Assembly: GCA_041441465.1 (NCBI GenBank)
Contig: JASDSY010000010.1
Span: 105,883 to 169,882, forward strand
Origin: Candidatus Wallbacteria bacterium
GTDB lineage: Bacteria > Muiribacteriota > UBA9980
DNA: 64,000 nucleotides
Direction of reading: 5' to 3'
Part shown: piece by piece, positions 17,589-43,801 of the stretch
Layout of the letters: each line of letters starts with the position of its first letter
Position numbering within the stretch: position 1 is the stretch's first letter
Translations under genes and position numbers: made by a program
Notes under the pieces: model-generated
What the model saw: only the letters and a program-made list of their open reading frames with translations
Told to the model about the DNA's origin: nothing
Databases searched by the model: none

Positions 17589-17632
17589 TTTATTTAGTTT
17601 TAAGAATTTCAGGCATAAACTAAATACATTTC

Positions 17633-17663
17633 ATGTTGCAATATGTTGCATTTTAAATGTTGC
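17633..17663 (+). promoter_or_regulatory. three direct repeats of ATGTTGC, candidate activator binding site
   Basis: atgttgc at 17633, 17643 and 17657, lying 60-90 nt upstream of a sigma54-like element. Confidence 0.3.
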
Positions 17664-17724
17664 TTTTAAAAAAAAGCGACATTTTTTTTATTTTAAAAGC
17701 ATATTTTATAACCCTTTTTAAACA

Positions 17725-17740
17725 TGGCACAAAAATTGTC
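17725..17740 (+). promoter_or_regulatory. sigma54-like -24/-12 element TGGCAC-N5-TTGTC (non-canonical -12)
   Basis: tggcacaaaaattgtc; -24 GG present, -12 reads GT instead of GC; about 40 nt upstream of the proposed cheA start. Confidence 0.25.
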
Positions 17741-17779
17741 CTTATATTTCTTACGAAAAGAAAAGGTCTGGTGATAAAT

Positions 17780-20020
17780 ATGGTAAAAAATTTAAGCAAT
17801 AACACCAATGAAAAAAAAGTTCCAAGAAAAATAAAAATAAGTTCAGCTGACCAGGCTGCTGCCATGCTTATTAACGCAGACGCTCCAGACTATATCGGCG
17901 TCAGTGAGGTAGCCGACTACATTCAAAATGTTATAGCTGAATATAATCCTTCAGGCGAAATAGGAGCGCTTGTATTTAATATATTTACAGAAGCTCTCAA
18001 TAAATTAAAAGAAGCCATAAAATTAAAAGATGAATCTCCCATAAATACAAAAGCAATAGAAGAATTACTCGGGGCTGCCGGCAGGCTTTTCGAAGCCGGA
18101 AAATCATATTATGAGTCAGACTCGCCTAAATTAAAAAGCGAAATTAAAACACCAGACAGTAAACCAAACCTTGACACTGAAAATAATGCCGGTATGACTA
18201 TGAATTTATCTAATAATCCCATAAGCTCACAAAATTCCGACACCAATCCCGCCGCGCAAAATAATGTTGCAAATTCGCAACCTTCCGTTAACTTAAACAA
18301 TGAATTACTGCCGGAATTTGTGAATGAAAGTCTTGAACATGTCGAAAAAGCTGAAGCCGCTCTTTTAACTCTCGAAAATTCGCCGGACGACCGCGACTCG
18401 ATCGATACCGTTTTCAGGGCATTTCATACGATAAAAGGGTCGGCTGCCTTTTTAGGCCTTGATTATATAGTAAAACTAGCGCATCAGGCCGAAAGCATGC
18501 TTTCAAAAATAAGGGAAGGCACACTGCAATATTCGGCATTTATATCAGACAGCGCACTTTCGGCTATCGACATGCTTTCTTTAATGATAAAAGGCGCGCA
18601 ATCAGGAAAATTATATAAGCCGGAAAACTTTGACGATCTGTTAAAAAAAATAGAATCTCCCGAATTAAATATAAATATTGCCAGCGGTAACAGCAATAGT
18701 AATAATGATATTGACAACAATATTAATAAAACAGAAAATAACGCGGCGGCTGCAATAACTCCAGCCGGCAATCCAGCCGAATCCCAAACCGGCCAGACAT
18801 CATCAACCAAAAATTCACAGCCTTCAATATCGGACGAAGAATCGATGCTGAGAATAAAAACGGATAGGGTTGACAAGTTAATAGACATGATAGGTGAATT
18901 GGTCATAGCGCATTCGATGGTAATGCAGGATAGTTTTGTTAAAACCGGCATAAATCATAATTTACAAAAAAAAGTAATGCGCACTTCTAAAATTATACGC
19001 GAGCTGCAGGATTTAAGCATGCTTATGCGCATGGTGCAATTCAAATCGCTGTTCCAGAAAATGGCGCGTTTAGTGCGCGACACTTCAAAAAAAACCGGCA
19101 AGGCTATTGAATTTATAACTTCGGGACATGAGACCGAAGTTGACCGCAACATCGTAGATACTTTAAATGACGCCCTGATTCATATGATCAGAAATTCCAT
19201 AGACCACGGCATCGAGCCTGCCGGGCAAAGGAGCGCTCAAAACAAACCTGCGCGCGGCGCAATTACGCTTTCTGCATTCCACGAAGGCGGTAACATAGTA
19301 TTAAAACTAAGCGATGACGGCCAGGGCTTGGACCGCGATAAAATATTAAATAAAGCGCTTGAAAAAGGAATAATAAAATCCGCACAGGGATTAAACGAAA
19401 ACGATGTTTTTAACTTAATATTTTTGCCGGGCTTTTCGACGAATGATAAGGTGACATCTCTTTCAGGACGCGGAGTCGGCATGGACGTAGTAAAAAAGGC
19501 CGTTGAAAAACTGCACGGCAAAATTGAGATATCATCAATAAAAAATAAAGGGACCACATTCACAATAAGGCTTCCGCTTACAATGGCAATAACGGACGGC
19601 ATGCTGATAAGAGTCGGAACTCAAAAGTTTATTATTCCGACGATCAATATAAAAATGACAATAAAGCCGCAAAAAGAACAAATTTCAATAATATCAGGCA
19701 GCGGCGAGCTTATAGCATTCAGGGGAAAAATGCTTCCGATATTCAGATTGAAAAAAGTATTTGAAATCAACGAGGGCGAAGACCTTATTGAAAACGGAAT
19801 AATTATAATACTAGAAGACAATCAAACTACATGCGCATTCTTTGTAGATGAGTTGCTGGGACAATACCAGGTTGTAGTCAAGCCTTTAGGCGCCGGCATC
19901 GGCAAGATCGACGGCATTTCAGGCGGGGCAATACTTGGCGACGGACGTGTCGGCCTCATAATCGAACCTTCTGAGTTAATAGAACAGGCAAAGCTTTTAG
20001 CCGTGCCGGTCGCAGCTTAA
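17780..20020 (+). CDS. cheA: chemotaxis histidine kinase CheA
   Basis: Hpt motif FRAFHTIKGSAAFLGL, HATPase region GRGVGMDVV, C-terminal CheW-like domain; ORF track starts at 17657 but that start would overlap the upstream repeat/promoter region, so the ATG at 17780 (MVKNL) is preferred. Confidence 0.8.
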   Translation: MVKNLSNNTNEKKVPRKIKISSADQAAAMLINADAPDYIGVSEVADYIQNVIAEYNPSGEIGALVFNIFTEALNKLKEAIKLKDESPINTKAIEELLGAAGRLFEAGKSYYESDSPKLKSEIKTPDSKPNLDTENNAGMTMNLSNNPISSQNSDTNPAAQNNVANSQPSVNLNNELLPEFVNESLEHVEKAEAALLTLENSPDDRDSIDTVFRAFHTIKGSAAFLGLDYIVKLAHQAESMLSKIREGTLQYSAFISDSALSAIDMLSLMIKGAQSGKLYKPENFDDLLKKIESPELNINIASGNSNSNNDIDNNINKTENNAAAAITPAGNPAESQTGQTSSTKNSQPSISDEESMLRIKTDRVDKLIDMIGELVIAHSMVMQDSFVKTGINHNLQKKVMRTSKIIRELQDLSMLMRMVQFKSLFQKMARLVRDTSKKTGKAIEFITSGHETEVDRNIVDTLNDALIHMIRNSIDHGIEPAGQRSAQNKPARGAITLSAFHEGGNIVLKLSDDGQGLDRDKILNKALEKGIIKSAQGLNENDVFNLIFLPGFSTNDKVTSLSGRGVGMDVVKKAVEKLHGKIEISSIKNKGTTFTIRLPLTMAITDGMLIRVGTQKFIIPTINIKMTIKPQKEQISIISGSGELIAFRGKMLPIFRLKKVFEINEGEDLIENGIIIILEDNQTTCAFFVDELLGQYQVVVKPLGAGIGKIDGISGGAILGDGRVGLIIEPSELIEQAKLLAVPVAA

Positions 20021-20024
20021 TATA

Positions 20025-20549
20025 ATGGCGGTGAGTATAATGACTATGGAAAACGCTCAAATTTATAACCATCCAACACAGGAAGCCGTTCAAATCAAAC
20101 CTGAACTGATTAAGCTGCTGACATTCATATTGAACGGAGAAGAATATGCGGTTGATATATTAAAAGTTCAGGAAATAATAGGCATCATTGAAATAACGCC
20201 GGTGCCTAAAACTAAGCCTTATATTAAAGGCGTTATAAATCTCAGGGGTTATATAATACCGGTAATAGACCTCAGAAAATTATTTGAGATGGCGGAAATA
20301 AAGTACACTGATTTAACCTGCATAGTAATAATTAAATCAGGCGGAATAACAATGGGGCTTATCGTCGATATGGTTTCTGACGTAATCGACGCCGGCACCG
20401 CTAATCTCCAAAAAACTCCCGATTTCGGCATTTCAGTTAAAACAGCATTCATTAATTCAATCGTAAAATCCGAACATAAGCCAAAATACTTAATAAATCT
20501 TGAAAAAATAATTGGAAGCGATGAAAATGCCGTAAATGGAAATACTTAA
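20025..20549 (+). CDS. cheW: chemotaxis coupling protein CheW
   Basis: 174 aa; CheW-like domain (FILNGEEYAVDILKVQEII...INLRGYIIPVIDLR). Confidence 0.8.
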   Translation: MAVSIMTMENAQIYNHPTQEAVQIKPELIKLLTFILNGEEYAVDILKVQEIIGIIEITPVPKTKPYIKGVINLRGYIIPVIDLRKLFEMAEIKYTDLTCIVIIKSGGITMGLIVDMVSDVIDAGTANLQKTPDFGISVKTAFINSIVKSEHKPKYLINLEKIIGSDENAVNGNT

Positions 20550-20620
20550 AATTTAAAATTAAATAACCAATACATGATAATAAAAATATAATAAAGTTAA
20601 CTATATAAGGGGGACTAAAC

Positions 20621-22525
20621 ATGAAAATTAAAATAAGCACAAAATTGATATCGAGCTTTATAGTGATCGCTCTAATAGCGGGATTAATAGGTATAATAAG
20701 CCGGAATAATCTTTTAGAAATCGATGGGAATTATACAAATCTCATCGAAAAATATATGCGCCCGCTTGTTAAAATCGAGAAAATCGACACCAACTTTCAG
20801 CATATAAGGGTATATTTAAGAGATTTGATAATGGAAACAAACAAGGACAAAATATCGAAAATCAAAGATAATATCACCGCATTAGACGAAGAAAATCAAA
20901 AACAGATAAAAGAAGTCGATCAAACTCTTTCTGATAATTCGAATATAAAAACAATAAATGAAATTTATGATTCATTTGTCAGCGAATACAATAGTTATAT
21001 GAGTGATGCAAATAAAATTAAAAATATTGTTAACGCCGGTCAGGAGAGCGAAGCGATAGCCATTTTAAACAGCAGCGCATTTATCGAAAAAGTAAATAAA
21101 GCTGACGAATATTTAAATAACTTGAACAAACTAGCTAACGCTGAAATTACCAGAATAGAAAATATAAACGAAGCGGAAGTTCATTCGACCCTCAGTACGA
21201 TCCTCTGGATCATCGTATCCGGAATAATTTTGGCGGTCATATTGGGGTTATTTATTTCAAGAGGCATCTCAAAAATAATATTGAATTTGAATAACGAAGT
21301 AAGGGCGATAATAAATTCGATTTTAGAAGGCAATCTTAAATTCAGGGGCGACTACCAAAAAATTAATTTTGAATTCCAGGACATAATAAAAGGCATTAAC
21401 GATATAATGGACGCTTATGATAAGCCTGTAAATGAAGCGCTCGCAACACTCGAAAAGATTTCAGAAAATGATTTAACGGTAAGAATGACAGGCAACTACA
21501 AAGGCGATTTCTTAAAAATTAAAGAATCGATCAATAAGGCTTTTGAAACGCTTGACAAGACGCTCCAAAATATACTCGCCAGCTCGGAACAGGTATCTGC
21601 ATCAGCGGTTCAAATCAGCGACGGCAGTCAGTCACTGGCAGCAGGCGCATCTGAGCAGGCAAGTTCTCTCGAAGAAATTTCAAGCAGCCTCCATGAAATG
21701 AACTCAATGGCTAAGCAAAATGCGGCAAATTCCAAAGAAGGCCAGAACCTTGCATTAATTACAAGAAAAAGCTCGGACCACGAAGTTGAAAGCATGAAAG
21801 AGCTTTCGAAAGCTATCGAAAAAATTAAAGAATCAGCCAGCAACACGGCGAAAATAACGAAAACGATAGAAGAAATAGCGTTCCAGACGAACCTTCTGGC
21901 CCTTAACGCGGCCGTAGAAGCGGCAAGAGCTGGAGACGCCGGCAAAGGATTCGCCGTTGTAGCCGAAGAAGTAAGGAATCTTGCAATGAGGAGCGCGGAA
22001 GCTGCTAAAAACACCGCGCAGCTTATAGAAGAATCGGTTAAAGACACTGTTTATGTAGTAAATATAAGCAATGACGCATTAAAAGGCCTGGCAGAAATCA
22101 GCTCGCATATAAATAAAGTCAACGAATTCATGTCCGAAATCGCCGCCGCATCTGAACAGCAGAGCCAGGGAATCGACCAGATCAACGCGGGCGTTTCTCA
22201 GTTAAATCAGGTTACGCAACAAAATGCAGCATTTTCTGAAGAATCAGCAGGATCGGCCGAAGAGTTGAATTCACTATCACGCGAAATGTTTTCAATGATA
22301 TTGAACTTCAAATTAACAGGAAGCGGCCAGATCAACTCAAAAAATTACGTAAACGCAATAGCCAGGCAAGATAAAAAAACAAGCGGAGTCAATGAAAAAA
22401 GACCGATAATAGACGCAGTACACAATATAAAAAAACTCGATAAATTTAAATCGAACACTATAAAAAAATCTCCTGAATCAATAATTCCATTTGATGATGA
22501 CAATGACATACTGAAGCAATTTTAA
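20621..22525 (+). CDS. methyl-accepting chemotaxis protein
   Basis: 634 aa; N-terminal TM, HAMP-like region, conserved signalling motif [34 protein letters not shown]; RBS aaggggg. Confidence 0.85.
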
Positions 22526-22561
22526 TTGTTTAAAGATATAATTCAAAGAAAGGAGGCTAGT

Positions 22562-23395
22562 ATGCCTTCGAAACTTTCCACAATTGAATTAAAAAATGCA
22601 GATTTTTTGAAGATAAGCGATCTGTTATATACATCATGCGGAATAGATCTGGACGACAATAAACAGGAACTTGTAAAATCAAGGCTTATAAAAAGGATCA
22701 GCGACCTTGAATTTAACAGCTTCGAACAGTATCTGGCCTTTATAAAACAGGATTATTCAAAAAAAGAATTGGCCTCTATGATCGATATGCTAACCACCAA
22801 TGTTACATATTTTTTCAGGGAACAAAGGCACTTTGATTTTATGGCCGCGTCGCTGAAAGCAAAAAAGGATACAAGAAAAGTAAGATTATGGAGCGCCGGG
22901 TGCTCATCCGGCGAAGAACCGTATTCAATCATAATGACTCTCAATGAAGAGTTGAGCAAATTTAACGAGTATGACATAAAAGTCCTGAGTACGGATATTT
23001 CGTCTAAAATGATAAATAAGGCACGTACCGGAATATACGACTCTATATCCTTGAAAGGCCTTAATAATTATATAATAGACAAGTATTTCATCAAGCAGGC
23101 TGAACTGCCTGAGTATAAAAACAACATAAAATACGACATAAAAAATAATATCAAGCGGCATATAAGTTTCGCGCGGCTGAATCTTATGGATGACTGGCCT
23201 ATGCACGGCCCTTTCGACTATATATTCTGCCGCAACGTCATGATATATTTTGATAAATTGACGCAGAATAAATTAATTAACAGATTTTATTCGCTTTTAG
23301 CAGACGGAGGTTATCTTTTTATAGGTCATTCAGAAAGCCTCTCCGCGTTAAAACATAATTTTAAATATATAGAACCAGCTATTTATTTAAAATAA
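22562..23395 (+). CDS. cheR: chemotaxis methyltransferase CheR
   Basis: SAM-binding region LWSAGCSSGEEPYSIIM; start set at the ATG 6 nt after aggagg (ORF track 22526). Confidence 0.8.
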   Translation: MPSKLSTIELKNADFLKISDLLYTSCGIDLDDNKQELVKSRLIKRISDLEFNSFEQYLAFIKQDYSKKELASMIDMLTTNVTYFFREQRHFDFMAASLKAKKDTRKVRLWSAGCSSGEEPYSIIMTLNEELSKFNEYDIKVLSTDISSKMINKARTGIYDSISLKGLNNYIIDKYFIKQAELPEYKNNIKYDIKNNIKRHISFARLNLMDDWPMHGPFDYIFCRNVMIYFDKLTQNKLINRFYSLLADGGYLFIGHSESLSALKHNFKYIEPAIYLK

Positions 23396-23418
23396 TTAAG
23401 TATATTGGAGGCGCCAGG

Positions 23419-24525
23419 ATGATTCGCGTTTTAATTGTTGATGATTCGGCGTTCGTAAGGAAAATCTTAAAAAATGAACTTTTAAAATATGACGACATCG
23501 AAGTGATCGGCGAGGCGGCCGACCCTTATGCCGCCCGTGAAATAATAGCGGAAAATAAACCGGACGTTATCACTCTTGACATTGAAATGCCAAGAATGGA
23601 CGGTATTACTTTTCTTGAAAAATTAATGAAATATTACCCGATTCCCGTTATAATAGTAAGCTCAGTTACCGCTCAAAACCGTGATTTAATACTAAAAGCG
23701 ATGAATTTGGGAGCAATCGAAGTAATAAATAAGGCAGGATCGCAATATTCTCTTCCAGATACTATAAGATTAATTAAAGCCATTAAAAACGCATCGTTGA
23801 TCAATATCGAAAAAATGAACTATACGGCTGAAATAAACCATGACTCAAATATAATCAAAGTAAAAAATACGGGTTTACAAGATAAAACCAATAATTATCA
23901 GGCTTCATTACAAAATGTTCCGGCGCTTCAGACGACGGATAAGTTAATAGCGATAGGCGCCTCAACTGGCGGGACGAAAGCGCTTGAAATAGTTCTTGCC
24001 GGCTTACCGGCCGACGTTCCGGCCGTCCTTATCGTCCAGCATATGCCTGAAGGATTTACCGAATCATTCGCCAAACGCCTCGACAGCATATGCAGCTTGC
24101 ATGTTAAAGAAGCAGCCGACGGCGATTATCTCGTTTCAGGTACGGCATTTATCGCACCGGGCAATAAACACATGGTACTTGCCAGAAGCGGCGCGCGATA
24201 TTATATAAAAATAAAGGACGGCCCTCATGTTCATCACCAAAAACCAAGCGTCGATGTGCTTTTTCATTCAGTATCCAGAAACGCCGGCCCGAACGCTGTA
24301 GGAGTCATATTAACCGGAATGGGCGCTGACGGCGCGTCTGGTATGCTTGAAATGCACGAATCAGGCTCCTATAATATAGCTCAGGACGAACAAAGTTCAG
24401 TCGTATTCGGAATGCCCAAAGAAGCCATAAAACTCGGCGCGGCCGATGAAGTCGCCGCTCTTGATAAAATCGCGGGTAAGATTGTCACGGCCGTCGAAAA
24501 GATAAAAAAACAGTCTGATAATTAA
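23419..24525 (+). CDS. cheB: chemotaxis methylesterase/response regulator CheB
   Basis: 368 aa; N-terminal receiver domain (VLIVDDSAFVRK...ITLDIEMPRMDG) and C-terminal methylesterase (IAIGASTGGTKALE). Confidence 0.85.
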   Translation: MIRVLIVDDSAFVRKILKNELLKYDDIEVIGEAADPYAAREIIAENKPDVITLDIEMPRMDGITFLEKLMKYYPIPVIIVSSVTAQNRDLILKAMNLGAIEVINKAGSQYSLPDTIRLIKAIKNASLINIEKMNYTAEINHDSNIIKVKNTGLQDKTNNYQASLQNVPALQTTDKLIAIGASTGGTKALEIVLAGLPADVPAVLIVQHMPEGFTESFAKRLDSICSLHVKEAADGDYLVSGTAFIAPGNKHMVLARSGARYYIKIKDGPHVHHQKPSVDVLFHSVSRNAGPNAVGVILTGMGADGASGMLEMHESGSYNIAQDEQSSVVFGMPKEAIKLGAADEVAALDKIAGKIVTAVEKIKKQSDN

Positions 24526-28135: not shown

Positions 28136-28165
28136 TTGACAAAGCGTTAATTCGTGTGGTAAAAT
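28136..28165 (+). promoter_or_regulatory. sigma70-type promoter TTGACA-N18-TAAAAT with TGg extended -10
   Basis: ttgaca 28136-28141, gtggtaaaat ending at 28165; about 40 nt upstream of the ATG at 28207. Confidence 0.45.
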
Positions 28166-28206: not shown

Positions 28207-29916
28207 ATGAAAATAAAAGATATTAAAATAAATGCTCTGTTTTTTAAAATATGTCTTTTAGCCGGCGTATTTTTGTACATCTTTGCGGGTTTATTCCATG
28301 GCAATTGTGAAGCCCGACAATTAAGGCTTGGCGCTTATAAATACCTGTCAGACGCCGATATGAAAAAAGTTCTCGACCCGTTCACGAACTATCTGTCAAA
28401 ATCGTTAAAAATACAGGTTAAGTTATATATTACTTCGACCTATACGGAGCTTGCGCAGCGTTTTATTTCGGGCGAAATGGATATGGCCATGATTCCGCCA
28501 TATGCTTATGTCAAGCTTGCCGACAAGATAAAAATGCAGCTTGCGGCTTCAATGAAACTTGACGGCTCATATTTTTATAACGGCGTAATAGTCGTCAAAG
28601 CCGATTCGGGCATCAACTCGATCGCTGATCTTACGAAAAAGCAATTCGCTTACGTATCGCCGGACAGCGCATCGGGTTACCTTTATCCAAGAATTTTAAT
28701 AAAAAAACAGGGCCTCGATCCGGATAATATGTTCTCTAAAGTCATATTTTCTGGCTCTCACGCCGAGTCAATAAAATCACTCGCGTCAGGAATGGTAGAC
28801 GGCATTTCTGTTTTCAAAACCGCCCTTGATTATTCCAACAACCAGGGTATCGATACATCTAAACTAAAAATAATAGCGGAAACGGAAAAAATACCGCACG
28901 AAGCTTTTATAGTTCAAAACAATATGGACCCCGCGCTTCTGTCATCCCTGAAACAGGCGTTGATCACTTTTAAATATTCGCCTCAGGAGATGGCCGAATT
29001 AGAAAAAAATTCCAAACAGGGCGTATTTAAGGTCGAAGGCTGGGTAGTGGGCCTTGACTCGCTTTATGACACGGTACGCGAGGCGCATAAATATTTTCCG
29101 GTAAAAGAACTCGAGAATACATCGAAAGATACAAACGCCGTAACAATCGGATATTATCCGCGCACCGATATAGACTCGACATTAAAATCGTTCGCGCCAC
29201 TTATCGAATATCTGTCAAAAGAAACAGGCTATAAATTTAAGCTGGCTTTCTCGCCGAATTATATCGACGTCGGCAACCAGCTGATAGAAGGCAATTATGA
29301 CATCGGCATAGTCACCCCGATTGCATTTGTAATGGCCAAAGAAAAATCCAAAACACCTATTAATGCACTAATTCAGCGTTCGACTGCCGGATTGACAACT
29401 TATAAAGGGATTCTGGTCAGCAAAAACGACGGCAAAATAAACAAGATAGAAGATTTAAAAGGCAAAATTTTCGCTTTTACAGAACCTGATTCAATTTCAG
29501 GAAGATTATACCCGCTTTCTATTTTTAAAAAGAACGGCATTTCAATAAAGACTTTTTTTGCAAAAACGTATTATGCAGGCTGTCCCAAAAAAGCACTTGA
29601 AGATGTCGCCGCGGGTTCGGCTGACGCATGCGCCTGCAATGACGCTGAGTTCAAGCTTTTAACCGAAGCCGATCCAAAACTTTTAAATTCGTTGAAAGTT
29701 TTTTATGTTACGCCGGAAATACCATATGAGTATTGGACGGTTATGGAAAATTCAAATCCGCTCATACGCGACAAATTCCAGGCCGCCGTTTTAAAAATTA
29801 ACTCAAATCCTCAATTAAAAAAAGAACTTCTTGAAAAAATTTTTTATGACGGTTTTTCAGCGCCTGACGAAAAAGGGCTGAATGAAATAATGGAAATGCT
29901 CAAAATTATTTTATGA
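28207..29916 (+). CDS. tandem PhnD-like periplasmic binding protein (two phosphonate-binding-type domains)
   Basis: 569 aa; N-terminal membrane anchor; internal duplication (FAYVSPDSASGYLYPRILIKKQGLDPD versus FAFTEPDSISGRLYPLSIFKKNGI). Confidence 0.6.
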   Translation: MKIKDIKINALFFKICLLAGVFLYIFAGLFHGNCEARQLRLGAYKYLSDADMKKVLDPFTNYLSKSLKIQVKLYITSTYTELAQRFISGEMDMAMIPPYAYVKLADKIKMQLAASMKLDGSYFYNGVIVVKADSGINSIADLTKKQFAYVSPDSASGYLYPRILIKKQGLDPDNMFSKVIFSGSHAESIKSLASGMVDGISVFKTALDYSNNQGIDTSKLKIIAETEKIPHEAFIVQNNMDPALLSSLKQALITFKYSPQEMAELEKNSKQGVFKVEGWVVGLDSLYDTVREAHKYFPVKELENTSKDTNAVTIGYYPRTDIDSTLKSFAPLIEYLSKETGYKFKLAFSPNYIDVGNQLIEGNYDIGIVTPIAFVMAKEKSKTPINALIQRSTAGLTTYKGILVSKNDGKINKIEDLKGKIFAFTEPDSISGRLYPLSIFKKNGISIKTFFAKTYYAGCPKKALEDVAAGSADACACNDAEFKLLTEADPKLLNSLKVFYVTPEIPYEYWTVMENSNPLIRDKFQAAVLKINSNPQLKKELLEKIFYDGFSAPDEKGLNEIMEMLKIIL

Positions 29917-29958
29917 TTGCGGTATGTTATAAATACCGGCCTTATAATGGAGGAATTT

Positions 29959-31197
29959 ATGAACAGGAATTTTTTAAAAATTTCAGTTATTACGTTTTTT
30001 ATCTTATCATTTTCATTCGTACTCTATGCCGACGAGGATAACATGCTGGCAATCGCCACAAAGGTAAAAGGAAACGCCGTCCGTCTTACTCTCAAAGGCG
30101 ATTCAGCCGCACTGCAAACCGGCGACAAGGTATATAAAGGCGAAAGCATAAAAACCGGAGCCGACGGCAGGGTCACATTAATATTCACCGACGGCGAAAT
30201 GCGCATAATAACATCGAATTCCGAATTAAAATTCGAAAATAGCGAAAAAAAGGAAAATCTTGCGGCAACCGACAAATTAAGCCAGACAATAGCATTTGCG
30301 GCTAACGTAAAAAATATCGAAGCCGCGGCGCAAAGCCTTACAGGCATAAAAACAAGCATGGCGCCGCCAAGCGTATCGGCGCCCAAGCCCGCAATGCCGC
30401 CAAGCGAATATGACAAATCCAATAATATCGAACCGGCCATGCCGGAAATCGAAGTTCCGCAAAAAGAAGCTTCAGCCATGCCAAATAAAAGCGGCATAAA
30501 GTCAAATCTTTACGATATCGATCTGGCGGAGCAAAAACATGAACACGTCCAGAGAGAGGACATGAAAAAAACAAGTAAAACCGATACAGCCAGAACCGGC
30601 GGCGGAAACTTAAAAAGTAAGACTGATTATTGGGACAGCTCAAAACTATTTAAAGAAAATGTAACAAAGTACAACCTGGGCTTGTGGTATGCCGATTCAG
30701 AATCAGTGACGCTTCAGGAAATTCTTCCTGGATTCGAAGCCGGCCCGCAAGCTGTTTTATGCATTACTGATTCGAGAAATTCAATAACGACAGCAGAAAT
30801 TAAATTTGCCGACACTTTAAAAATCGACAAAGTTATAGCGCAAAAAGAATCAGCCTGCGTATTAATCGCCCAAACACATGATTTCAAGCCGATAGTTCTT
30901 AATTTTGAATCGCCGAACGCCGATTATGAAATAAATTTAGTAAAAAGCGGAATGATATTTTTAGAAAAAATAAAAAATGACGATCCTGAAACTTATTTAT
31001 ATTTAAAAGCTTCGTTATTTTTTAACAACAAGTTTTATACGGCCGCATTAAAAAGCATATTCGAATTCGAAAAGCTGACCGGCAGCTGTCCTATGCACAT
31101 AATGAATTTGAAAGCGCTCATATATTCGAGCATGGGCCTGACGGAACATGCCAAAACAATATTAAAAAACAAGTTCAATAAAGAGCGTGAAAGATAA
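29959..31197 (+). CDS. FecR-domain protein with signal peptide/TM
   Basis: FecR-like motif GDKVYKGESIKTGADGRVTLIFTDGEMRIITSNSELKF; start set at the ATG 6 nt after ggagg (ORF track 29917); Pro/Ala-rich linker. Confidence 0.55.
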   Translation: MNRNFLKISVITFFILSFSFVLYADEDNMLAIATKVKGNAVRLTLKGDSAALQTGDKVYKGESIKTGADGRVTLIFTDGEMRIITSNSELKFENSEKKENLAATDKLSQTIAFAANVKNIEAAAQSLTGIKTSMAPPSVSAPKPAMPPSEYDKSNNIEPAMPEIEVPQKEASAMPNKSGIKSNLYDIDLAEQKHEHVQREDMKKTSKTDTARTGGGNLKSKTDYWDSSKLFKENVTKYNLGLWYADSESVTLQEILPGFEAGPQAVLCITDSRNSITTAEIKFADTLKIDKVIAQKESACVLIAQTHDFKPIVLNFESPNADYEINLVKSGMIFLEKIKNDDPETYLYLKASLFFNNKFYTAALKSIFEFEKLTGSCPMHIMNLKALIYSSMGLTEHAKTILKNKFNKERER

Positions 31198-31199
31198 AA

Positions 31200-33152
31200 A
31201 TGACCTCAGGGTTTAAACATAAGCGGCTGTTCCTTTATTTCCTTCTCACAGCCGCGGCTTTTTTGCTATTTTTTACGGACGGCAACGTTTTCGGCAGCTT
31301 CGTCGATTACAGGTGGCGCGACCTGCTTTTCTGGATGCGCGGTCCTGAACCGGTTGACGAAAGGATAATTATTTGCACAATAGACGAGGACTCGTTCGAG
31401 GCGCTTGAAAAAGACCTGCCGTTCGACCAGAAAATTTATATCAATTTCTTTGATAACTTAAAAAAACTTGAAGCCGGCGTTATCGGACTCGACTTCATAA
31501 TTTCGGAATCATATAAAAACGAATTCAGCACCGACGATGTCGCATTGAAAAAGAGCATTCAAAACCTAAATTCAATAGTATTCGCCGCGAAATTCGAAAA
31601 TTATTTTAAAAACGAAAAATTAGGCGGACAGGAAATAAGCTCGATCGGCATTAAATATAAAATGTCAAACCGTTTTTTCTCAGAATCAGGCAGGACAGGG
31701 TTAATAAACGCCGCTCTCGATCAGGACGGCACGATGAGAAATTCCAGGTTATTTTTCAAAAGCCCGATTGACGGCGAGACTAAAGAAACTTTTATATTCA
31801 AGCTTTACGAGGCGTTTTTCGACAGACTGAAAGACAGCGAGAAGAAAAACTATATGGCGCCCTCAAAATTAGCCCTCGAACGCAATAACTTCATAATCAA
31901 TTATGCCGGCGGGCCGAAACACTTTAACGAAGTGCCTTTTTATTCTTTTGCAATGATGCCGCCAGAGTCGATTGAAAAGTTAAAATCAAGATACAAAGAT
32001 AAAATTATAATAGTAGGCCCTTCTTATTATGAAAGCCACGATTTTTTCAGCGTGCCGTTTTCCAATTCGCAGTATGTGAAGGGCTACAACTTAATGGCCG
32101 GTGTCGAAGTCATCGCTAACGCGCTGAACACCATCATAAAGAATAAATTCATAACCGCAGCGCAGCGCAATGAATTTATATTCATTTATACGAGTTTTGC
32201 GGTTTTATCGATTATTATCTTCGGATTGTTTTCGAATTTTTTCGTTAACTTGTTTTTTTATGCTGCACAGGTATTATCGATATTATATATTTCGTATCAT
32301 TATTTCATAAATAAGCTTTCATTCATGGATATTTCAACTTTAATTTCGATGATAACCATAATTTATTTTATATCGGCCGCGTATAAAATATTTGTGATAG
32401 AAAGCGAAAAAAAAGCCATCAAATCGACCCTTGAACGATATGTCAGCCAGAACATAGTCGATACGATTTTAAATCACGGTGAAAGTATAAACATGGCCGG
32501 AAGCGATATCGATGCCGCGATTTTATTCGCTGACATAAGAAGTTTCACTTCGCTTTCGGAAAAATTGCCGGCCGAAAATATAGTGAAGATTTTAAATCTA
32601 GTTTTCAAAAAAATGGTTGACGTAATATTCGCCAATAACGGCACTCTCGACAAATTCATAGGCGACTGTGTCATGGTGATCTTCGGCGCTCCGCAAAAAA
32701 GCAAAATGCCGATAAAACAGGCTATAACATGCGCGCTTGAAATGCAGAAAGCGGCCCGTGAATTTAACAGGGAATATGCCGAAGAATTGTCAAAATTATG
32801 CGCGCCGGCTTTTAATGACCATAATAATAAAGGCGAAATAAAAATTTCTGAAATCTCGATAGGAATAGGTATAAATTTCGGCCGCTGCGCCGTAGGCAAT
32901 ATAGGTTCTGAAAAGCGTCTCGAATACACAGCGATCGGCGATACGGTGAACATAGCTTCAAGAATACAGAGCCTGGCAGGCGGCGGTGAGATTATCATAA
33001 CCGAAGATTTATACGAAGCGCTTTATAAAAATGAAAACGAATATTTCAACGCAATAAAAAATGATATTATAAAGTTAGAGCCTGTCCACCTCAAAGGCCG
33101 CGAAACGCCGGTTCTGATTTATAAGCTGCAAAACCGGCCGCTGATCAGCTGA
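31200..33152 (+). CDS. CHASE2 sensor domain-containing class III adenylate/guanylate cyclase
   Basis: 650 aa; CHASE2-like N-terminus (LLFWMRGPEP...IIICTIDEDS...GVIGLDFIISE), three TM helices, cyclase core AAILFADIRSFTSL...GDCVMVIFGAP. Confidence 0.75.
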   Translation: MTSGFKHKRLFLYFLLTAAAFLLFFTDGNVFGSFVDYRWRDLLFWMRGPEPVDERIIICTIDEDSFEALEKDLPFDQKIYINFFDNLKKLEAGVIGLDFIISESYKNEFSTDDVALKKSIQNLNSIVFAAKFENYFKNEKLGGQEISSIGIKYKMSNRFFSESGRTGLINAALDQDGTMRNSRLFFKSPIDGETKETFIFKLYEAFFDRLKDSEKKNYMAPSKLALERNNFIINYAGGPKHFNEVPFYSFAMMPPESIEKLKSRYKDKIIIVGPSYYESHDFFSVPFSNSQYVKGYNLMAGVEVIANALNTIIKNKFITAAQRNEFIFIYTSFAVLSIIIFGLFSNFFVNLFFYAAQVLSILYISYHYFINKLSFMDISTLISMITIIYFISAAYKIFVIESEKKAIKSTLERYVSQNIVDTILNHGESINMAGSDIDAAILFADIRSFTSLSEKLPAENIVKILNLVFKKMVDVIFANNGTLDKFIGDCVMVIFGAPQKSKMPIKQAITCALEMQKAAREFNREYAEELSKLCAPAFNDHNNKGEIKISEISIGIGINFGRCAVGNIGSEKRLEYTAIGDTVNIASRIQSLAGGGEIIITEDLYEALYKNENEYFNAIKNDIIKLEPVHLKGRETPVLIYKLQNRPLIS

Positions 33153-39499: not shown

Positions 39500-41344
39500 C
39501 TAAACCCTGAATTCAATTGCGAGTTCGTCCAATTTTTTATTCGAAGGAACGCCAAATTCATTCCAGCCCCTTAATTTATAGTAATCTGAAATTATGGCGC
39601 CGACATCTGGAAGATTATCAGCTGCAATGCCGCCGCCCCTTTTTTTACAGTAAAGGCGGGCAGGCAAAATATCGTCTTTTCTTGATATTCCAAGTTTCAC
39701 ATTTAAAAGCCTTTTCTCGTTAAAAACTCTTTCGCTTATATGCAGCAGTTCATCATTTGACATATTAATATCGGTAATATATTTCAGCCATTTGGCAATA
39801 TCAAAAATAGTCACGCCTCCGCGCGCCATGAACTTGCAAATTCCAAGCGGATTAAATATCCCGAAAAAATTTTGAGTTAAAACAGAAAGCAGCGCCGCGC
39901 TCTGCGAATCATTAGAAACCGTGTCGGGCAAGCCGATACCGTCGTAATATCTTCCGATTCCAAGAGTATATGAAAGTCCTTCGAGATGGCAGGCGCCGCG
40001 GTTGGCGGTCATATAATCAGCTGCCATACTGTAAAACGCCCGAGGATCATGCATCGCAACTTCGAGCCCCTTGACGTGCACCGCAAATTCCGATGAATTT
40101 TTCCCGATCGTCTCGGCGGCCTTTTTTACTCCGCCGGTGAGTATCGCCCCGATACCGGCGCCTTTAGCCATTTGTTCCAAAACGGCCATTACCGCATCCG
40201 CATTTCCCCACTCGAGCTTGATTCCCTGTAAATCGATACCGCTTAATATTCCGTATTCATAACATTCCATGGCAAAGGCAACAGCTGAAGAGGCTGAAAT
40301 AGCATCGAGCCCCATACGGTCGCAATATTCGCTCGCCGCACAAACTAAGTAAGGGTCATCGTTCATTATTAAAGCGGAAAAACCTTCTACAGCCTCAAGT
40401 TCCGGCGAATGTGAGTGAAGGTTGCCATATTTAGGATGAATGAAATTCATTATTTTTCCGCAGCCCACCGGACATGCAAAACATGAATAATCCTTTTCGA
40501 ATGTAAGTTTTTTTATCTCCTGGCCGGAAACTTTTTCGACTTTTTCCTTAAAACTACCGTCACGCCAGTTTTTTACAGGCAAATCGCCGCGCGCCTCAGC
40601 GTTGATAATTCCTCCGGAAGTCCCGAATTCATGCAATGACATGGTGTTTTCTTTTATAACGGGTATTTTTTCTTTAACTTCATTTAAAAGCAAATCCTGC
40701 GAAAACAGTTCGGACTTGATATCGCCGCAAGCCGCTATGGCCTTGAGTTTCTTCGAGCCCATAACCGCTCCCATCCCGCCGCGGCCGGCGCTGCGCGCAT
40801 TACGGCCCTCGCATATTATCGAAGCGATCGAAGCAGACCTTTCGCCCGCCGGACCAATGCACATCACCTTTAATTTTTCGCCTTCATCAGCTATTATTTT
40901 ATCGTTAGTAAAAAAAGTATCTTTGCCCCATAAATGGCCGGCATCTTTAAACTCGACATCCTGGTTCTTTATAACCAGATAAATAGGATTAGCCGACCGG
41001 CCTTTTATCAGGAGACCGTCATAACCCGTGCTTTTTAATGCGGCCGGAAAATAACCGCCGACCGTGGATTCATTCCATATTCCGGTAAGCGGCGACAAAC
41101 CGCAAACCGACATCTTACAGGAAGCCGGAAATGGCGTACCGGTAAGTAATCCCGTAAATATAAGAAGCGGAGCTTCAGGCGACAAAGGATTAACGTGGAT
41201 GTTAAAATATTTAAGCATATAATAAATGCCATAACCTGACCCTAACAGATGCGATTTTATAATTTTCGGATCTATCAGGATCTCCTTATACGACTGAAAC
41301 CCGAGATCTATTTCCAGGAATTTACCGTTATAGCCATAAGGCAT
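39500..41344 (-). CDS. aor: aldehyde:ferredoxin oxidoreductase family (tungstopterin-type)
   Basis: 614 aa; N-terminus MPYGYNGKFLEIDL and overall AOR family layout. Confidence 0.7.
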   Translation of the reverse strand: MPYGYNGKFLEIDLGFQSYKEILIDPKIIKSHLLGSGYGIYYMLKYFNIHVNPLSPEAPLLIFTGLLTGTPFPASCKMSVCGLSPLTGIWNESTVGGYFPAALKSTGYDGLLIKGRSANPIYLVIKNQDVEFKDAGHLWGKDTFFTNDKIIADEGEKLKVMCIGPAGERSASIASIICEGRNARSAGRGGMGAVMGSKKLKAIAACGDIKSELFSQDLLLNEVKEKIPVIKENTMSLHEFGTSGGIINAEARGDLPVKNWRDGSFKEKVEKVSGQEIKKLTFEKDYSCFACPVGCGKIMNFIHPKYGNLHSHSPELEAVEGFSALIMNDDPYLVCAASEYCDRMGLDAISASSAVAFAMECYEYGILSGIDLQGIKLEWGNADAVMAVLEQMAKGAGIGAILTGGVKKAAETIGKNSSEFAVHVKGLEVAMHDPRAFYSMAADYMTANRGACHLEGLSYTLGIGRYYDGIGLPDTVSNDSQSAALLSVLTQNFFGIFNPLGICKFMARGGVTIFDIAKWLKYITDINMSNDELLHISERVFNEKRLLNVKLGISRKDDILPARLYCKKRGGGIAADNLPDVGAIISDYYKLRGWNEFGVPSNKKLDELAIEFRV

Positions 41345-41384
41345 TATATGGAACGCTCCTTTACGATTCTCGCTTATTTAATTT

Positions 41385-43550: not shown

Positions 43551-43801
43551 TACCCGCCTCCGTATATGTATATATTGAAAAAAATTTTCCTTCGGTTTTC
43601 TAAAATAATCACGATAAAATTAAATAGATAAATATTTTTAATTTTATCAGAAATAATTTTTAATTGCAAATAATTTATTATTCAGGCGAATAACCGCTTC
43701 AGGGACATTATCCGGCAAAGCAGGAAATATTACAAAATTACTCTGATTTATTTTTAACAATTGACTTAATAGGCTTATTTATGGTATAAGAGAAAAATAT
43801 A

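What the first reader, a model, noticed from the sequence alone, without database searches (positions are those of the whole stretch)
28207..33152. Three-gene sensory module: tandem PhnD-like binding protein, FecR-domain protein, CHASE2 nucleotide cyclase
Seen: three co-directional, tightly spaced genes (stop-start distances of 1-45 nt) encode a membrane-anchored protein with two PhnD-like binding domains, a FecR-domain protein with signal peptide, and a CHASE2-TM-class III cyclase. Established knowledge: CHASE2 is an extracytoplasmic sensor domain, and FecR-type domains often accompany it. Inference: the binding protein may capture a phosphonate- or oxyanion-like ligand and pass the signal to cAMP/cGMP synthesis. 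The ligand is unknown.
Basis: partly seen in the sequence, partly recalled or inferred. Interest (0 to 1): 0.42.

Follow-up and report, generated by a model that had tools for sequence, protein, structure and literature searches.

The report
Binding-protein-linked CHASE2 adenylate cyclase operon
Three tightly packed genes in an uncultured Wallbacteria-type bacterium encode a secreted two-domain phosphonate-type binding protein, an MtxA-like periplasmic adaptor and a membrane CHASE2 adenylate cyclase, which probably form one sensor that turns an unknown oxyanion signal into cAMP: a modest new variant of a known but unexplained module.

Summary
The three genes exist at the stated coordinates. 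g1 has two PhnD-type binding domains. g3 is 1TM-CHASE2-3TM plus a class III cyclase with all six catalytic residues (Lys485/Thr577, class IIIb), so the predicted product is cAMP.

g1 most likely has a cleavable signal peptide (AxA|R in relatives), not a membrane anchor. g2 fails the Pfam FecR cut-off (13 bits against 24). It is better described as MtxA-like: signal peptide, FecR-superfamily beta domain, disordered linker, then an Ig-like plus TPR domain that matches the MtxA crystal structure.

The triad is intact and in the same order in all ten distinct related loci recovered. All are from one Wallbacteria-type lineage, and both flanks vary.

Pairing of a FecR/MtxA-type protein with a CHASE2 cyclase is widespread and already noted in the literature. 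The PhnD-type partner is not: 0 of 61 sampled CHASE2 cyclase loci have one. More distant two-domain PhnD proteins sit directly before sCache histidine kinases, as AioX does before AioS.

Best reading: a binding-protein-dependent CHASE2 cyclase. The ligand and the protein contacts are inferred, not shown. It is a new variant of a known kind, of moderate interest.

The parts
28136..28165 (+). Sigma-70-like promoter candidate (TTGACA, 18 nt, tgTAAAAT) in the adenine deaminase-g1 gap
   Evidence: Best match in the region, 11 of 12 with an extended -10 TG, 42 nt before the g1 ATG. This is a consensus match only.
28207..29916 (+). g1: secreted protein with two PhnD/PtxB/AioX-type binding domains (569 aa)
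   Evidence: Pfam Phosphonate-bd x2, 357 bits; TIGR01098 283 bits. Closest solved relatives are PtxB, ArrX, AioX, HtxB and PhnD.
28207..28314 (+). g1 signal peptide (aa 1-36), predicted cleavage CEA|RQ
   Evidence: Hydrophobic segment at aa 5-34. AxA|RELRLGAY is conserved in relatives.
28315..29106 (+). g1 domain 1 (aa 37-300), canonical oxyanion pocket
   Evidence: Y79, Y124, S154, S156 and H185 are invariant in 15 sequences. They map to AioX Y88/Y131/S161/S163/H192 and PhnD Y47/Y93/S127/S129/H157. Cap position E232 is acidic in 15/15.
29119..29913 (+). g1 domain 2 (aa 305-569), divergent pocket
   Evidence: Y352, Y399, S429 and S431 are kept. The pocket His is replaced by C459-P460 in the cyclase-linked clade but retained in the 33-35% clade. 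E508 sits at the cap position.
29959..31197 (+). g2: MtxA-like periplasmic protein (412 aa from ATG 29959; the longest ORF starts at TTG 29917)
   Evidence: GGAGGA lies before ATG 29959. Orthologues occupy the same position in all related loci.
29959..30030 (+). g2 signal peptide (aa 1-24, ...VLYA|DED)
   Evidence: Hydropathy. The N-terminus is conserved in alignment A4.
30043..30243 (+). g2 N-terminal beta domain (aa 29-95), FecR/MtxA_N/LapA-retention-like
   Evidence: - Direct Pfam hits are sub-threshold: DUF7354/MtxA_N 22.9 bits, FecR 13.2 bits.
- NCBIfam LapA retention module, E 1.9e-9.
- Family profile against PDB entry 5ix9, E 8.9e-8.
- Foldseek against 5ix9, target-normalised TM-score 0.81.
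- 33 of 46 remote hits are Pfam FecR proteins.
30244..30630 (+). g2 disordered Pro/Ala/Ser/Lys-rich linker (aa 96-224)
   Evidence: pLDDT about 30. Not alignable between orthologues.
30664..31191 (+). g2 C-terminal beta (Ig-like) plus five-helix TPR-like domain (aa 236-411)
   Evidence: AlphaFold2 pLDDT 60-95. Foldseek match to the MtxA C-terminal domain, PDB 4z29: E 2.6e-3, probability 1.00, target-normalised TM-score 0.54 over 193 columns. The last ~65 aa are 44-50% identical among orthologues.
31200..33152 (+). g3: CHASE2 receptor-type class IIIb adenylate cyclase (650 aa)
31251..32213 (+). g3 periplasmic CHASE2 domain (aa 18-338), between TM1 (aa 8-28) and a block of about 3 TM (aa 324-400)
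   Evidence: Pfam CHASE2, 119.5 bits against a cut-off of 26.3. Hydropathy.
32514..33080 (+). g3 cyclase catalytic domain (aa 439-627)
   Evidence: Pfam Guanylate_cyc, 99.7 bits. D445, K485, D489, N584 and R588 are invariant and T577 nearly invariant in 18 CHASE2 cyclases. Best solved relatives are Cya2 (2w01/6fht) and P. aeruginosa CyaB (3r5g).

Best explanation
The three genes form one transcription unit that encodes a periplasmic three-part sensor driving cAMP synthesis.

Proposed mechanism:
1. g1 is exported and its signal peptide is cleaved.
2. Its first PhnD-type domain keeps the full Tyr/Tyr/Ser-x-Ser/His oxyanion pocket and binds a small phosph(on)ate-like anion. An acidic residue sits where E. 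coli PhnD contacts the amine of 2-aminoethylphosphonate. Phosphite-specific PtxB has a capping Tyr at that position. The ligand is therefore unlikely to be phosphite, and an aminoalkylphosphonate-like compound is possible.
3. The second domain has lost the pocket His. It either binds a different ligand or serves as the docking domain.
4. Ligand-induced closure of g1 is read by the periplasmic CHASE2 domain of g3, directly or through g2.
5. g2 is an MtxA-like adaptor: a FecR-type beta domain, a flexible linker, then an Ig-like plus TPR protein-interaction domain.
6. The signal crosses the membrane through the three-helix block. It changes the activity of the homodimeric class IIIb (Lys/Thr) cyclase and so changes cellular cAMP.

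Shown here:
- the domain content of all three proteins;
- intact catalytic and pocket residues;
- tight gene packing;
- conservation of the triad while both flanks vary.

Inferred:
- export and signal-peptide cleavage;
- the ligand class;
- all protein-protein contacts;
- whether the signal activates or inhibits the cyclase;
- the downstream cAMP receptor, which is not encoded in the window.
For: Gene organisation and conservation:
- Gaps of 42 and 2 nt, with the best promoter-like site in the region just upstream of g1.
- The triad is intact and in the same order in all ten distinct related loci. These are the 8 species representatives L009-L016 (L010 overlaps L001) plus L002 and L003. Identities are 56-62% for g1 and 49-51% for g3; g2 is 28-42% identical over its conserved segments.
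- Both flanks vary. Upstream is adenine deaminase in the window and an ABC_tran_2 + ABC_tran pair in the relatives. Downstream is a split transketolase in most loci but a Cache/HAMP gene in L001/L009/L010.

Component properties:
- All six cyclase catalytic residues are present.
- The domain 1 pocket keeps 5 of 5 residues, invariant across 15 sequences.
- No SBP-dependent importer permease lies next to g1, in the window or in relatives.

Evidence that g1's relatives act in sensing:
- The closest solved relatives include the sensor binding proteins AioX and ArrX (PMC5908839).
- The closest single-domain relatives found are PhnD-like domains fused to MCP signalling domains and to Ser/Thr kinases.
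- Five distant two-domain PhnD proteins are each followed by an sCache-HAMP histidine kinase.

Evidence that g2 and g3 are partners:
- FecR/MtxA-type genes accompany CHASE2 cyclases in 18 of 33 well-flanked metagenome loci.
- The same pairing is reported in magnetotactic bacteria, Campylobacterota and Burkholderia (PMC4439547, PMC9239204, PMC5192318).
Against: - Co-conservation is confined to one lineage (Wallbacteria-type MAGs). Neighbouring genes there are also largely syntenic, so shared ancestry could explain part of it.
- No PhnD-like gene accompanies any of 61 other CHASE2 cyclases sampled. The link therefore has no independent second origin to support it.
- The nearest outgroup of g1 (33-35% identity; L004, L100) sits beside a sugar-acid-kinase-like gene, not a sensor.
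- No interaction, ligand or expression data exist.
- Deleting mtxA in Magnetospirillum gave no phenotype (PMC4439547), so even the better-known pair has no demonstrated function.
- The g2 model is only of moderate confidence (mean pLDDT 62).
- The homologue search for g1 scored only 8000 word-sharing candidates. The ranking of sensor fusions above transporter binding proteins is therefore not exhaustive.
Confidence: 0.55

Rival explanations
1. g1 is an ordinary transport binding protein for an ABC importer encoded elsewhere. Its position next to g2-g3 would then be inherited gene order within one lineage, with no signalling link. Only g2-g3 would be the functional MtxA-like/CHASE2 cyclase pair.
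For: - g1 passes the phosphate/phosphite/phosphonate ABC substrate-binding subfamily model TIGR01098 (283 bits against 112) and nearly reaches the PhnD equivalog cut-off (260.4 against 261.1).
- All relatives carry an ABC ATPase and a membrane protein directly upstream.
- The triad is known from one lineage only, where the transketolase neighbour is also mostly conserved.
- PhnD-like genes are absent from 61 other CHASE2 cyclase loci.
Against: - The upstream membrane protein matches ABC_tran_2 (PF16949), not a binding-protein-dependent importer permease. The pair is missing from the window while the triad stays intact.
- No phnC/phnE, C-P lyase, phosphonatase or ptxD genes were found among the window ORFs scanned. 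Two large ORFs were not scanned.
- The 42-nt and 2-nt gaps and a single upstream promoter-like site argue for co-transcription.
- Rearrangement breakpoints fall on both sides of the triad but never inside it.
Confidence: 0.25
2. g1 is a sensor binding protein, but its true partner is another membrane receptor, such as a chemoreceptor or histidine kinase elsewhere in the genome. The CHASE2 cyclase with g2 would then sense something unrelated, such as an envelope or protein signal.
For: - Binding proteins are documented partners of chemoreceptors and kinases (PMC8050422).
- A chemotaxis cluster (CheA, CheW, MCP, CheR, CheB) lies 4-10 kb upstream in the window.
- The closest single-domain relatives of g1 are fused to MCP and kinase modules.
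Against: - The chemotaxis cluster is not next to the triad in any related locus.
- No kinase or MCP gene is adjacent to g1 in the triad loci, whereas g2 and g3 always are.
Confidence: 0.1
3. The module acts mainly as a scaffold or retention device in the cell envelope rather than as a small-molecule sensor. g2's N-domain resembles the retention plug of LapA-type adhesins. CHASE2 would then report on an envelope protein state, with g1 in a structural role.
For: The g2 N-domain matches the LapA/MpIBP retention module (NCBIfam E 1.9e-9; PDB 5ix9 E 8.9e-8, target-normalised TM-score 0.81). In S. meliloti the signal for the CHASE2 cyclases is thought to be proteinaceous (abstract of PMC13001267).
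Against: - g2 has no adhesin repeats, RTX domain or type I secretion signal. It carries a Sec-type signal peptide.
- Domain 1 of g1 keeps an invariant small-anion pocket, which implies ligand binding under selection.
Confidence: 0.1

Closest known systems
mtxA / CHASE2 adenylate cyclase gene pair of magnetotactic bacteria (MtxA, MGR_0208; PDB 4Z29)
   Same: - Same gene order: a secreted protein gene immediately followed by a CHASE2 class III cyclase gene.
- Same domain order in the secreted protein: signal peptide, beta domain, Ig-like domain, TPR domain.
- The g2 model matches the 4Z29 structure, with weak Pfam MtxA_N hits.
- Function is unknown in both.
   Different: - There is no detectable sequence similarity to the MtxA C-terminal domain.
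- g2 carries a ~130-aa disordered insert.
- The organism shows no link to magnetotaxis.
- The reference describes no binding-protein gene upstream of mtxA.
FecR-domain / TPR / CHASE2 cyclase clusters (Campylobacterota, PMC9239204) and the LysM-FecR / CHASE2 histidine kinase 'BiofilmReg' operon (Burkholderia, P. aeruginosa; PMC5192318)
   Same: A periplasmic FecR-superfamily protein is encoded next to a CHASE2 receptor. The same pairing occurs in 18 of 33 well-flanked CHASE2 cyclase loci sampled here.
   Different: - In those systems the FecR and TPR parts are separate proteins or are fused to LysM, and the output may be a kinase.
- A phosphodiesterase or response regulator is part of those clusters.
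- None contains a PhnD-type binding protein.
AioX-AioS-AioR and ArrX-ArrS-ArrR three-component systems (PhnD-family sensor binding proteins; PMC5908839, PMC8050422)
   Same: A PhnD-fold periplasmic protein with no adjacent importer is encoded directly upstream of a membrane sensor and acts as its ligand-binding subunit. AioX and ArrX are among g1's closest solved relatives, and the shared pocket residues are conserved.
   Different: - g1 has two domains instead of one.
- The arsenite-binding Cys106 position is Ile/Pro or Thr/Pro.
- The partner is a CHASE2 cyclase, not an sCache histidine kinase.
- There is no sigma-54 regulator or molybdoenzyme operon.
- An extra MtxA-like protein is present.
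Transport binding proteins PhnD, PtxB and HtxB of phosphonate, phosphite and hypophosphite ABC importers (PMC5700983)
   Same: Same Pfam and TIGRFAM family, with the Ser-x-Ser...His motif and the two Tyr ligands present in domain 1.
   Different: - g1 is a tandem duplication.
- No PhnC/PhnE partners are adjacent.
- The PtxB capping Tyr is replaced by Glu.
- Domain 2 lacks the His, a change that recalls HtxB His-to-Phe.
- g1 falls just below the PhnD equivalog cut-off.
Receptor cyclases with a fused binding-protein-fold ectodomain (natriuretic peptide receptor guanylate cyclases; trypanosome receptor adenylate cyclases). This comparison rests on general knowledge and was not tested here.
   Same: A periplasmic-binding-protein-fold ligand module controls a class III cyclase across a membrane.
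   Different: In those receptors the module is fused to the cyclase and has a different binding-protein type. Here it is a separate secreted protein, and the receptor ectodomain is CHASE2.

Membership tests
PhnD/PtxB/AioX binding-protein family (Pfam PF12974, TIGR01098) | Sequence match above the curated cut-offs | tested here: met
   PF12974 scores 357 bits against 27, with two domains. TIGR01098 scores 283.5 against 112.
PhnD/PtxB/AioX binding-protein family (Pfam PF12974, TIGR01098) | Conserved oxyanion ligands (two Tyr, Ser-x-Ser, His) | tested here: met
   Domain 1 keeps 5 of 5, invariant in 15 sequences. Domain 2 keeps 4 of 5, with the His lost.
PhnD phosphonate transporter binding protein (TIGR03431 equivalog) | Equivalog score cut-off and an adjacent phnC/phnE importer | tested here: not met
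   Scores 260.4 bits against a cut-off of 261.1, summed over two domains. No importer permease or ATPase lies next to g1 in the window. The upstream pair in relatives is ABC_tran_2 type.
AioX/ArrX/ArxX sensor binding proteins | Pocket Cys (AioX Cys106) conserved in the subfamily | tested here: not met
   The aligned positions are I96/P97 in domain 1 and T370/P371 in domain 2.
AioX/ArrX/ArxX sensor binding proteins | Encoded with a histidine kinase, a response regulator and a molybdoenzyme operon | tested here: not met
   The following genes are g2 and a cyclase, and no kinase or regulator is adjacent. Distant two-domain relatives do show this arrangement.
CHASE2 receptor-type class III adenylate cyclase | CHASE2 domain above the cut-off, flanked by one N-terminal TM and a C-terminal TM block | tested here: met
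   119.5 bits against 26.3. Hydrophobic segments lie at aa 8-28 and 324-400.
CHASE2 receptor-type class III adenylate cyclase | Two metal Asp, substrate Lys plus Asp/Thr, and transition-state Asn and Arg | tested here: met
   D445, D489, K485, T577, N584 and R588 are present. Lys aligns with the engineered Lys of the Cya2-derived cyclase 6fht, where wild-type Cya2 has Glu. Assigning these residues to roles and to class IIIb rests on established knowledge of class III cyclases.
MtxA family (Pfam PF24045 MtxA_N; PDB 4Z29) | N-terminal domain match above the Pfam cut-off | tested here: not met
   22.9 bits against 31.4. The orthologue P0054 carries a precomputed PF24045 hit and the L001 orthologue a weak one.
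MtxA family (Pfam PF24045 MtxA_N; PDB 4Z29) | Architecture of signal peptide, beta domain, Ig-like domain and TPR, with a C-terminal fold like 4Z29 | tested here: inconclusive
   Foldseek gives E 2.6e-3, probability 1.00, target-normalised TM-score 0.54 and rmsd 5.8 over 193 columns. The model is of moderate confidence. A sequence profile finds no match to 4Z29.
MtxA family (Pfam PF24045 MtxA_N; PDB 4Z29) | Gene immediately followed by a CHASE2 adenylate cyclase gene | tested here: met
   A 2-nt gap separates g2 from g3. The reference arrangement is described in PMC4439547.
FecR (Pfam PF04773; FecR anti-sigma factors) | FecR domain above the Pfam cut-off | tested here: not met
   13.2 bits, E 0.12, cut-off 24. 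Support is transitive only: 33 of 46 remote hits of the g2 profile are Pfam FecR proteins.
FecR (Pfam PF04773; FecR anti-sigma factors) | Cytoplasmic anti-sigma domain plus TM, with an adjacent ECF sigma factor and TonB-dependent receptor | tested here: not met
   g2 has only an N-terminal signal peptide. No sigma-70 family or TonB-receptor genes were found among the scanned genes of the window.

The most novel reading that the evidence does not exclude
CHASE2 has had no known ligand since it was defined in 2003. In this reading it is a docking platform for secreted partner proteins rather than a small-molecule binding domain. This operon would then be the first case where the primary ligand receptor of a CHASE2 protein can be named: a two-domain PhnD-type binding protein, with the MtxA-like protein as adaptor. 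It would also be the first binding-protein-dependent bacterial adenylate cyclase.
Probability: 0.3. Interest if true: 0.65.

Novelty: new variant of a known kind. Interest (0 to 1): 0.45.

Why it matters
CHASE2 is among the commonest extracytoplasmic sensor domains of bacterial cyclases, kinases and diguanylate cyclases, yet no input signal is known for it. The function of the FecR/MtxA-type proteins encoded beside CHASE2 receptors is also unknown.

A version of the module that carries a PhnD-type binding protein offers an experimental handle. Binding proteins are soluble and easy to purify, and they can be screened against anion and phosphonate libraries. The system could then be rebuilt in a cya-deficient E. 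coli to ask how a CHASE2 receptor is switched.

The finding would also add adenylate cyclases to the list of receptor classes served by solute-binding proteins. A 2021 review lists kinases, chemoreceptors, c-di-GMP enzymes and Ser/Thr kinases (PMC8050422). A term search of that review turned up no cyclase example.

The reach is limited, because the arrangement is known only from one uncultured lineage.

Tried and rejected
- **First g2 structure model.** AlphaFold2 with a 3-sequence alignment was useless (mean pLDDT 38). It was repeated with 11 sequences (pLDDT 62).
- **AFDB fold search.** The afdb50 library was not available, so only the PDB was searched.
- **Word-indexed search for g2.** It found only 2 proteins. 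The exhaustive profile search was needed, and it showed that the full-length family is tiny, about 10 representatives.
- **RNA elements.** An Rfam scan of 26-36 kb found nothing, so no riboswitch or leader RNA is involved.
- **Terminators.** No convincing intrinsic terminator was found inside or after the triad.
- **cAMP receptor or ligand metabolism genes.** The window's ORFs of 90 aa or more were scanned with Pfam, except the two largest and two short ones. No cNMP-binding or CRP protein, phosphodiesterase, phnCE, C-P lyase or ptxD gene was found.
- **g1 as the binding protein of the upstream ABC pair seen in relatives.** Rejected. The membrane protein is of ABC_tran_2 type, and the pair is absent from the window.
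- **An arsenic-sensing AioX/ArrX role.** Rejected as membership, because the pocket Cys and the kinase/regulator/molybdoenzyme context are missing.
- **A true FecR anti-sigma role for g2.** Rejected, because there is no anti-sigma domain, ECF sigma factor or TonB receptor.
- **A link to the chemotaxis cluster upstream.** Rejected, because that cluster is not syntenic with the triad in any relative.

Full report
**What is in the sequence**

Three co-directional ORFs occupy 28207-29916 (g1, 569 aa), 29917-31197 (g2) and 31200-33152 (g3, 650 aa). The longest g2 ORF starts at TTG 29917. An ATG at 29959 preceded by GGAGGA is the more likely start, giving 412 aa and a 42-nt gap after g1. g3 starts 2 nt after the g2 stop. 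The best sigma-70-like site in the region (TTGACA, 18 nt, tgTAAAAT, 11 of 12) lies 42 nt upstream of g1, in the 112-nt gap after an adenine deaminase gene. No Rfam family matches between 26 and 36 kb. The anatomy is that of one small operon.

**g1: the binding protein**

- Pfam finds two Phosphonate-bd domains (357 bits). NCBIfam places g1 in the phosphate/phosphite/phosphonate binding-protein subfamily but just under the PhnD equivalog cut-off.
- Each domain's closest solved relatives are PtxB, ArrX, AioX, HtxB and PhnD.
- I mapped the pocket residues published for AioX/PhnD (PMC5908839) and PtxB/HtxB (PMC5700983) onto a 15-sequence alignment.
  - Domain 1 keeps Y79, Y124, S154, S156 and H185, all invariant.
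  - Domain 2 keeps the two Tyr and Ser-x-Ser but has Cys-Pro in place of the His. The more distant 33-35% clade still has that His.
  - The AioX arsenite-binding Cys is absent from both domains.
  - The position of the PtxB capping Tyr, which is also E. coli PhnD Asp205, is Glu or Asp in both domains of all 15 sequences.
- The N-terminal hydrophobic segment ends in AxA|RELRLGAY in relatives and CEA|RQLRLGAY in the window, with no conserved lipobox. No predictor was available to test this.

**g3: the cyclase**

- g3 has a CHASE2 domain (119.5 bits) and a class III cyclase domain (99.7 bits). Hydropathy gives one TM, then the CHASE2 ectodomain, then a block of about three TM helices.
- In an alignment of 18 CHASE2 cyclases, D445, K485, D489, N584 and R588 are invariant and T577 nearly so.
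- By established knowledge of class III cyclases, these are the two metal-binding Asp, the substrate-specifying Lys and Thr (the class IIIb signature) and the transition-state Asn and Arg. The enzyme should therefore be active and make cAMP.
- The Lys aligns with the engineered Lys of the Cya2-derived adenylate cyclase 6fht, where wild-type Cya2 has Glu.

**g2: the middle protein**

Pfam FecR reaches only 13 bits (cut-off 24). The best Pfam hit is DUF7354, renamed MtxA_N in the newer release, at 22.9 bits and also below its cut-off. NCBIfam gives a sub-threshold match to the LapA retention module.
- An exhaustive profile search of 1.84 billion representatives found only about ten full-length relatives. 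The remote hits cover only residues ~30-100, and 33 of 46 of them are Pfam FecR proteins while 16 match MtxA_N. The N-domain therefore belongs to the FecR superfamily only by transitive evidence.
- An AlphaFold2 model from an 11-sequence alignment (mean pLDDT 62) shows a signal peptide helix, a beta domain (aa 29-91), a disordered segment (aa 96-224), a second beta domain (aa 236-317) and five helices (aa 322-411).
- Against the PDB, the top match is the N-terminal retention domain of the Marinomonas ice-binding adhesin (5ix9, target-normalised TM-score 0.81). The second is the MtxA C-terminal Ig-like plus TPR domain (4z29, E 2.6e-3, probability 1.0, target-normalised TM-score 0.54).
- MtxA of Magnetospirillum has the same domain order, and its gene is followed by a CHASE2 adenylate cyclase gene. 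Its deletion gave no phenotype (PMC4439547). g2 is best described as a divergent MtxA-like protein with a long flexible insert.

**Conservation of the triad**

- The related species-representative genomes are labelled Candidatus Wallbacteria, UBP16 or simply 'bacterium'.
- All eight carry g1-g2-g3 in the same order with short gaps. So do two further metagenome contigs, L002 and L003 (L001 overlaps L010).
- g1 is 56-62% identical and g3 49-51%. g2 is only 28-42% identical, and that only in its N-domain and last ~65 residues.
- The flanks vary. Upstream the relatives have an ABC_tran_2 membrane protein and an ABC ATPase, which the window lacks. Downstream most loci have the split transketolase also seen in the window, but three have a Cache/HAMP gene instead.
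- Breakpoints therefore bracket the triad without entering it.
- This supports a functional unit, but weakly. All examples come from one lineage whose gene order is generally conserved.

**How unusual the combination is**

- I sampled 80 metagenome loci with a CHASE2-cyclase alignment, and 61 encode CHASE2 plus a cyclase domain. A FecR-like gene lies within three genes in 23 of them, and in 18 of the 33 that have at least two genes on each side. Every FecR-like neighbour that I then checked passes the Pfam FecR cut-off.
- None of the 61 has a PhnD-like gene, although the same models detect every g1 relative.
- The literature already records FecR/TPR/CHASE2 cyclase clusters in Campylobacterota (PMC9239204) and LysM-FecR/CHASE2 kinase operons in Burkholderiales (PMC5192318).
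- The g2-g3 pair is therefore a known, unexplained kind. The PhnD-type partner is the new element.

**Evidence that g1-type proteins serve sensors**

- The closest single-domain relatives of domain 1 found are PhnD-like domains fused to MCP signalling modules and to Ser/Thr kinases. They rank above stand-alone binding proteins, but the search scored only word-sharing candidates.
- Five distant two-domain PhnD proteins (L005, L006/7, L008, L101, L102) are each followed directly by an sCache_3_2/HAMP histidine kinase. In three of these loci a sigma-54 regulator follows the kinase, and in L006/L007 an Fe-S/molybdopterin oxidoreductase follows as well. This is the AioX-AioS-AioR arrangement.
- Against this, the nearest outgroup of g1 (33-35% identity) sits next to a sugar-acid-kinase-like gene.

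**Mechanism and rivals**

My preferred reading has confidence about 0.55.
- g1 is a secreted ligand receptor whose domain 1 binds a phosph(on)ate-like anion.
- Its closure is sensed by the CHASE2 ectodomain, directly or through the MtxA-like adaptor.
- This modulates a class IIIb adenylate cyclase.

The main rival (0.25) is that g1 is a transport binding protein whose adjacency is inherited gene order. Two further rivals score about 0.1 each: that g1 serves a different receptor, and that the module reports an envelope or protein state rather than a small molecule.

No cAMP receptor, phosphodiesterase or phosphonate/phosphite metabolism gene was found among the window ORFs scanned. The window therefore gives no hint of the ligand or the output.

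**Verdict**

The finding is a new variant of a known kind. Its value is as a tractable entry point to the unknown input of CHASE2 receptors.

Noticed in passing
L024 3436-5850; L025 3063-5777; L031 3283-5814; L049 2309-4879; L075 2646-5069: In five unrelated metagenome loci, an 800-900 aa ORF with no Pfam match sits between a Pfam FecR gene and a CHASE2 cyclase gene. It looks like a recurrent, uncharacterised third partner of such cyclases.
   Followed up: partly
L006 6502-15680 (also L005, L007, L008, L101, L102): Distant two-domain PhnD proteins are each followed by an sCache_3_2-HAMP histidine kinase. In three of the loci (L006/L007, L008, L101) a further gene follows, a sigma-54 regulator where identified. 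L006/L007 also has Fe-S and molybdopterin oxidoreductase genes downstream and a MOSC gene upstream. This is an AioXSR-like system built on a tandem binding protein.
   Followed up: partly
L100 378-3101; L004 6126-8153: The nearest outgroup of g1 (33-35% identity, two PhnD domains, pocket His kept in domain 2) is followed by a four-carbon-acid sugar kinase-like gene (SBD_N/NBD_C), not a sensor.
   Followed up: partly
proteins P0019, P0020, P0023, P0026 (MCP) and P0022, P0025, P0027 (Ser/Thr kinase): These signalling proteins carry a PhnD-like domain at their C-terminus (for example aa 324-582 of the 584-aa P0019). That position is unusual for a sensor domain in a chemoreceptor. They are the closest single-domain relatives of g1 domain 1.
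   Followed up: no
window 32778-32834 (g3 aa ~527-545): The window's cyclase has an insertion of about 17 aa (...ELSKLCAPAFNDHNNKG...) inside the catalytic domain. It is absent from its orthologues P0056 and P0068 and from other CHASE2 cyclases.
   Followed up: no
L012 5425-7749 and the equivalent positions in L001, L002 and L009-L016: An ABC_tran_2-type membrane protein and an ABC ATPase lie directly upstream of the triad in every relative. They are absent from the window, where adenine deaminase takes their place.
   Followed up: yes
window 30043-30243 (g2 aa 29-95): The g2 N-domain is closer to the retention plug of LapA/MpIBP-type giant adhesins (PDB 5ix9; E 8.9e-8, 30% identity, target-normalised TM-score 0.81) than to any solved FecR. 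This suggests that the retention module, MtxA_N and FecR domains form one superfamily.
   Followed up: partly
window 15189-24525: A PAS/sigma-54 activator is followed by a complete chemotaxis set (CheA, CheW, 4HB-MCP, CheR, CheB) on the + strand, 4-13 kb upstream of the triad. This cluster is not syntenic with the triad in relatives.
   Followed up: partly
window 39500-44773: An aldehyde:ferredoxin oxidoreductase gene (tungsten-type, - strand) and MoaA flank a 721-aa ORF (41385-43550, - strand) that has no Pfam match.
   Followed up: no
window 50677-54954 (-) and 60109-63474 (+): Two very large ORFs (1425 and 1121 aa) were listed but not examined.
   Followed up: no
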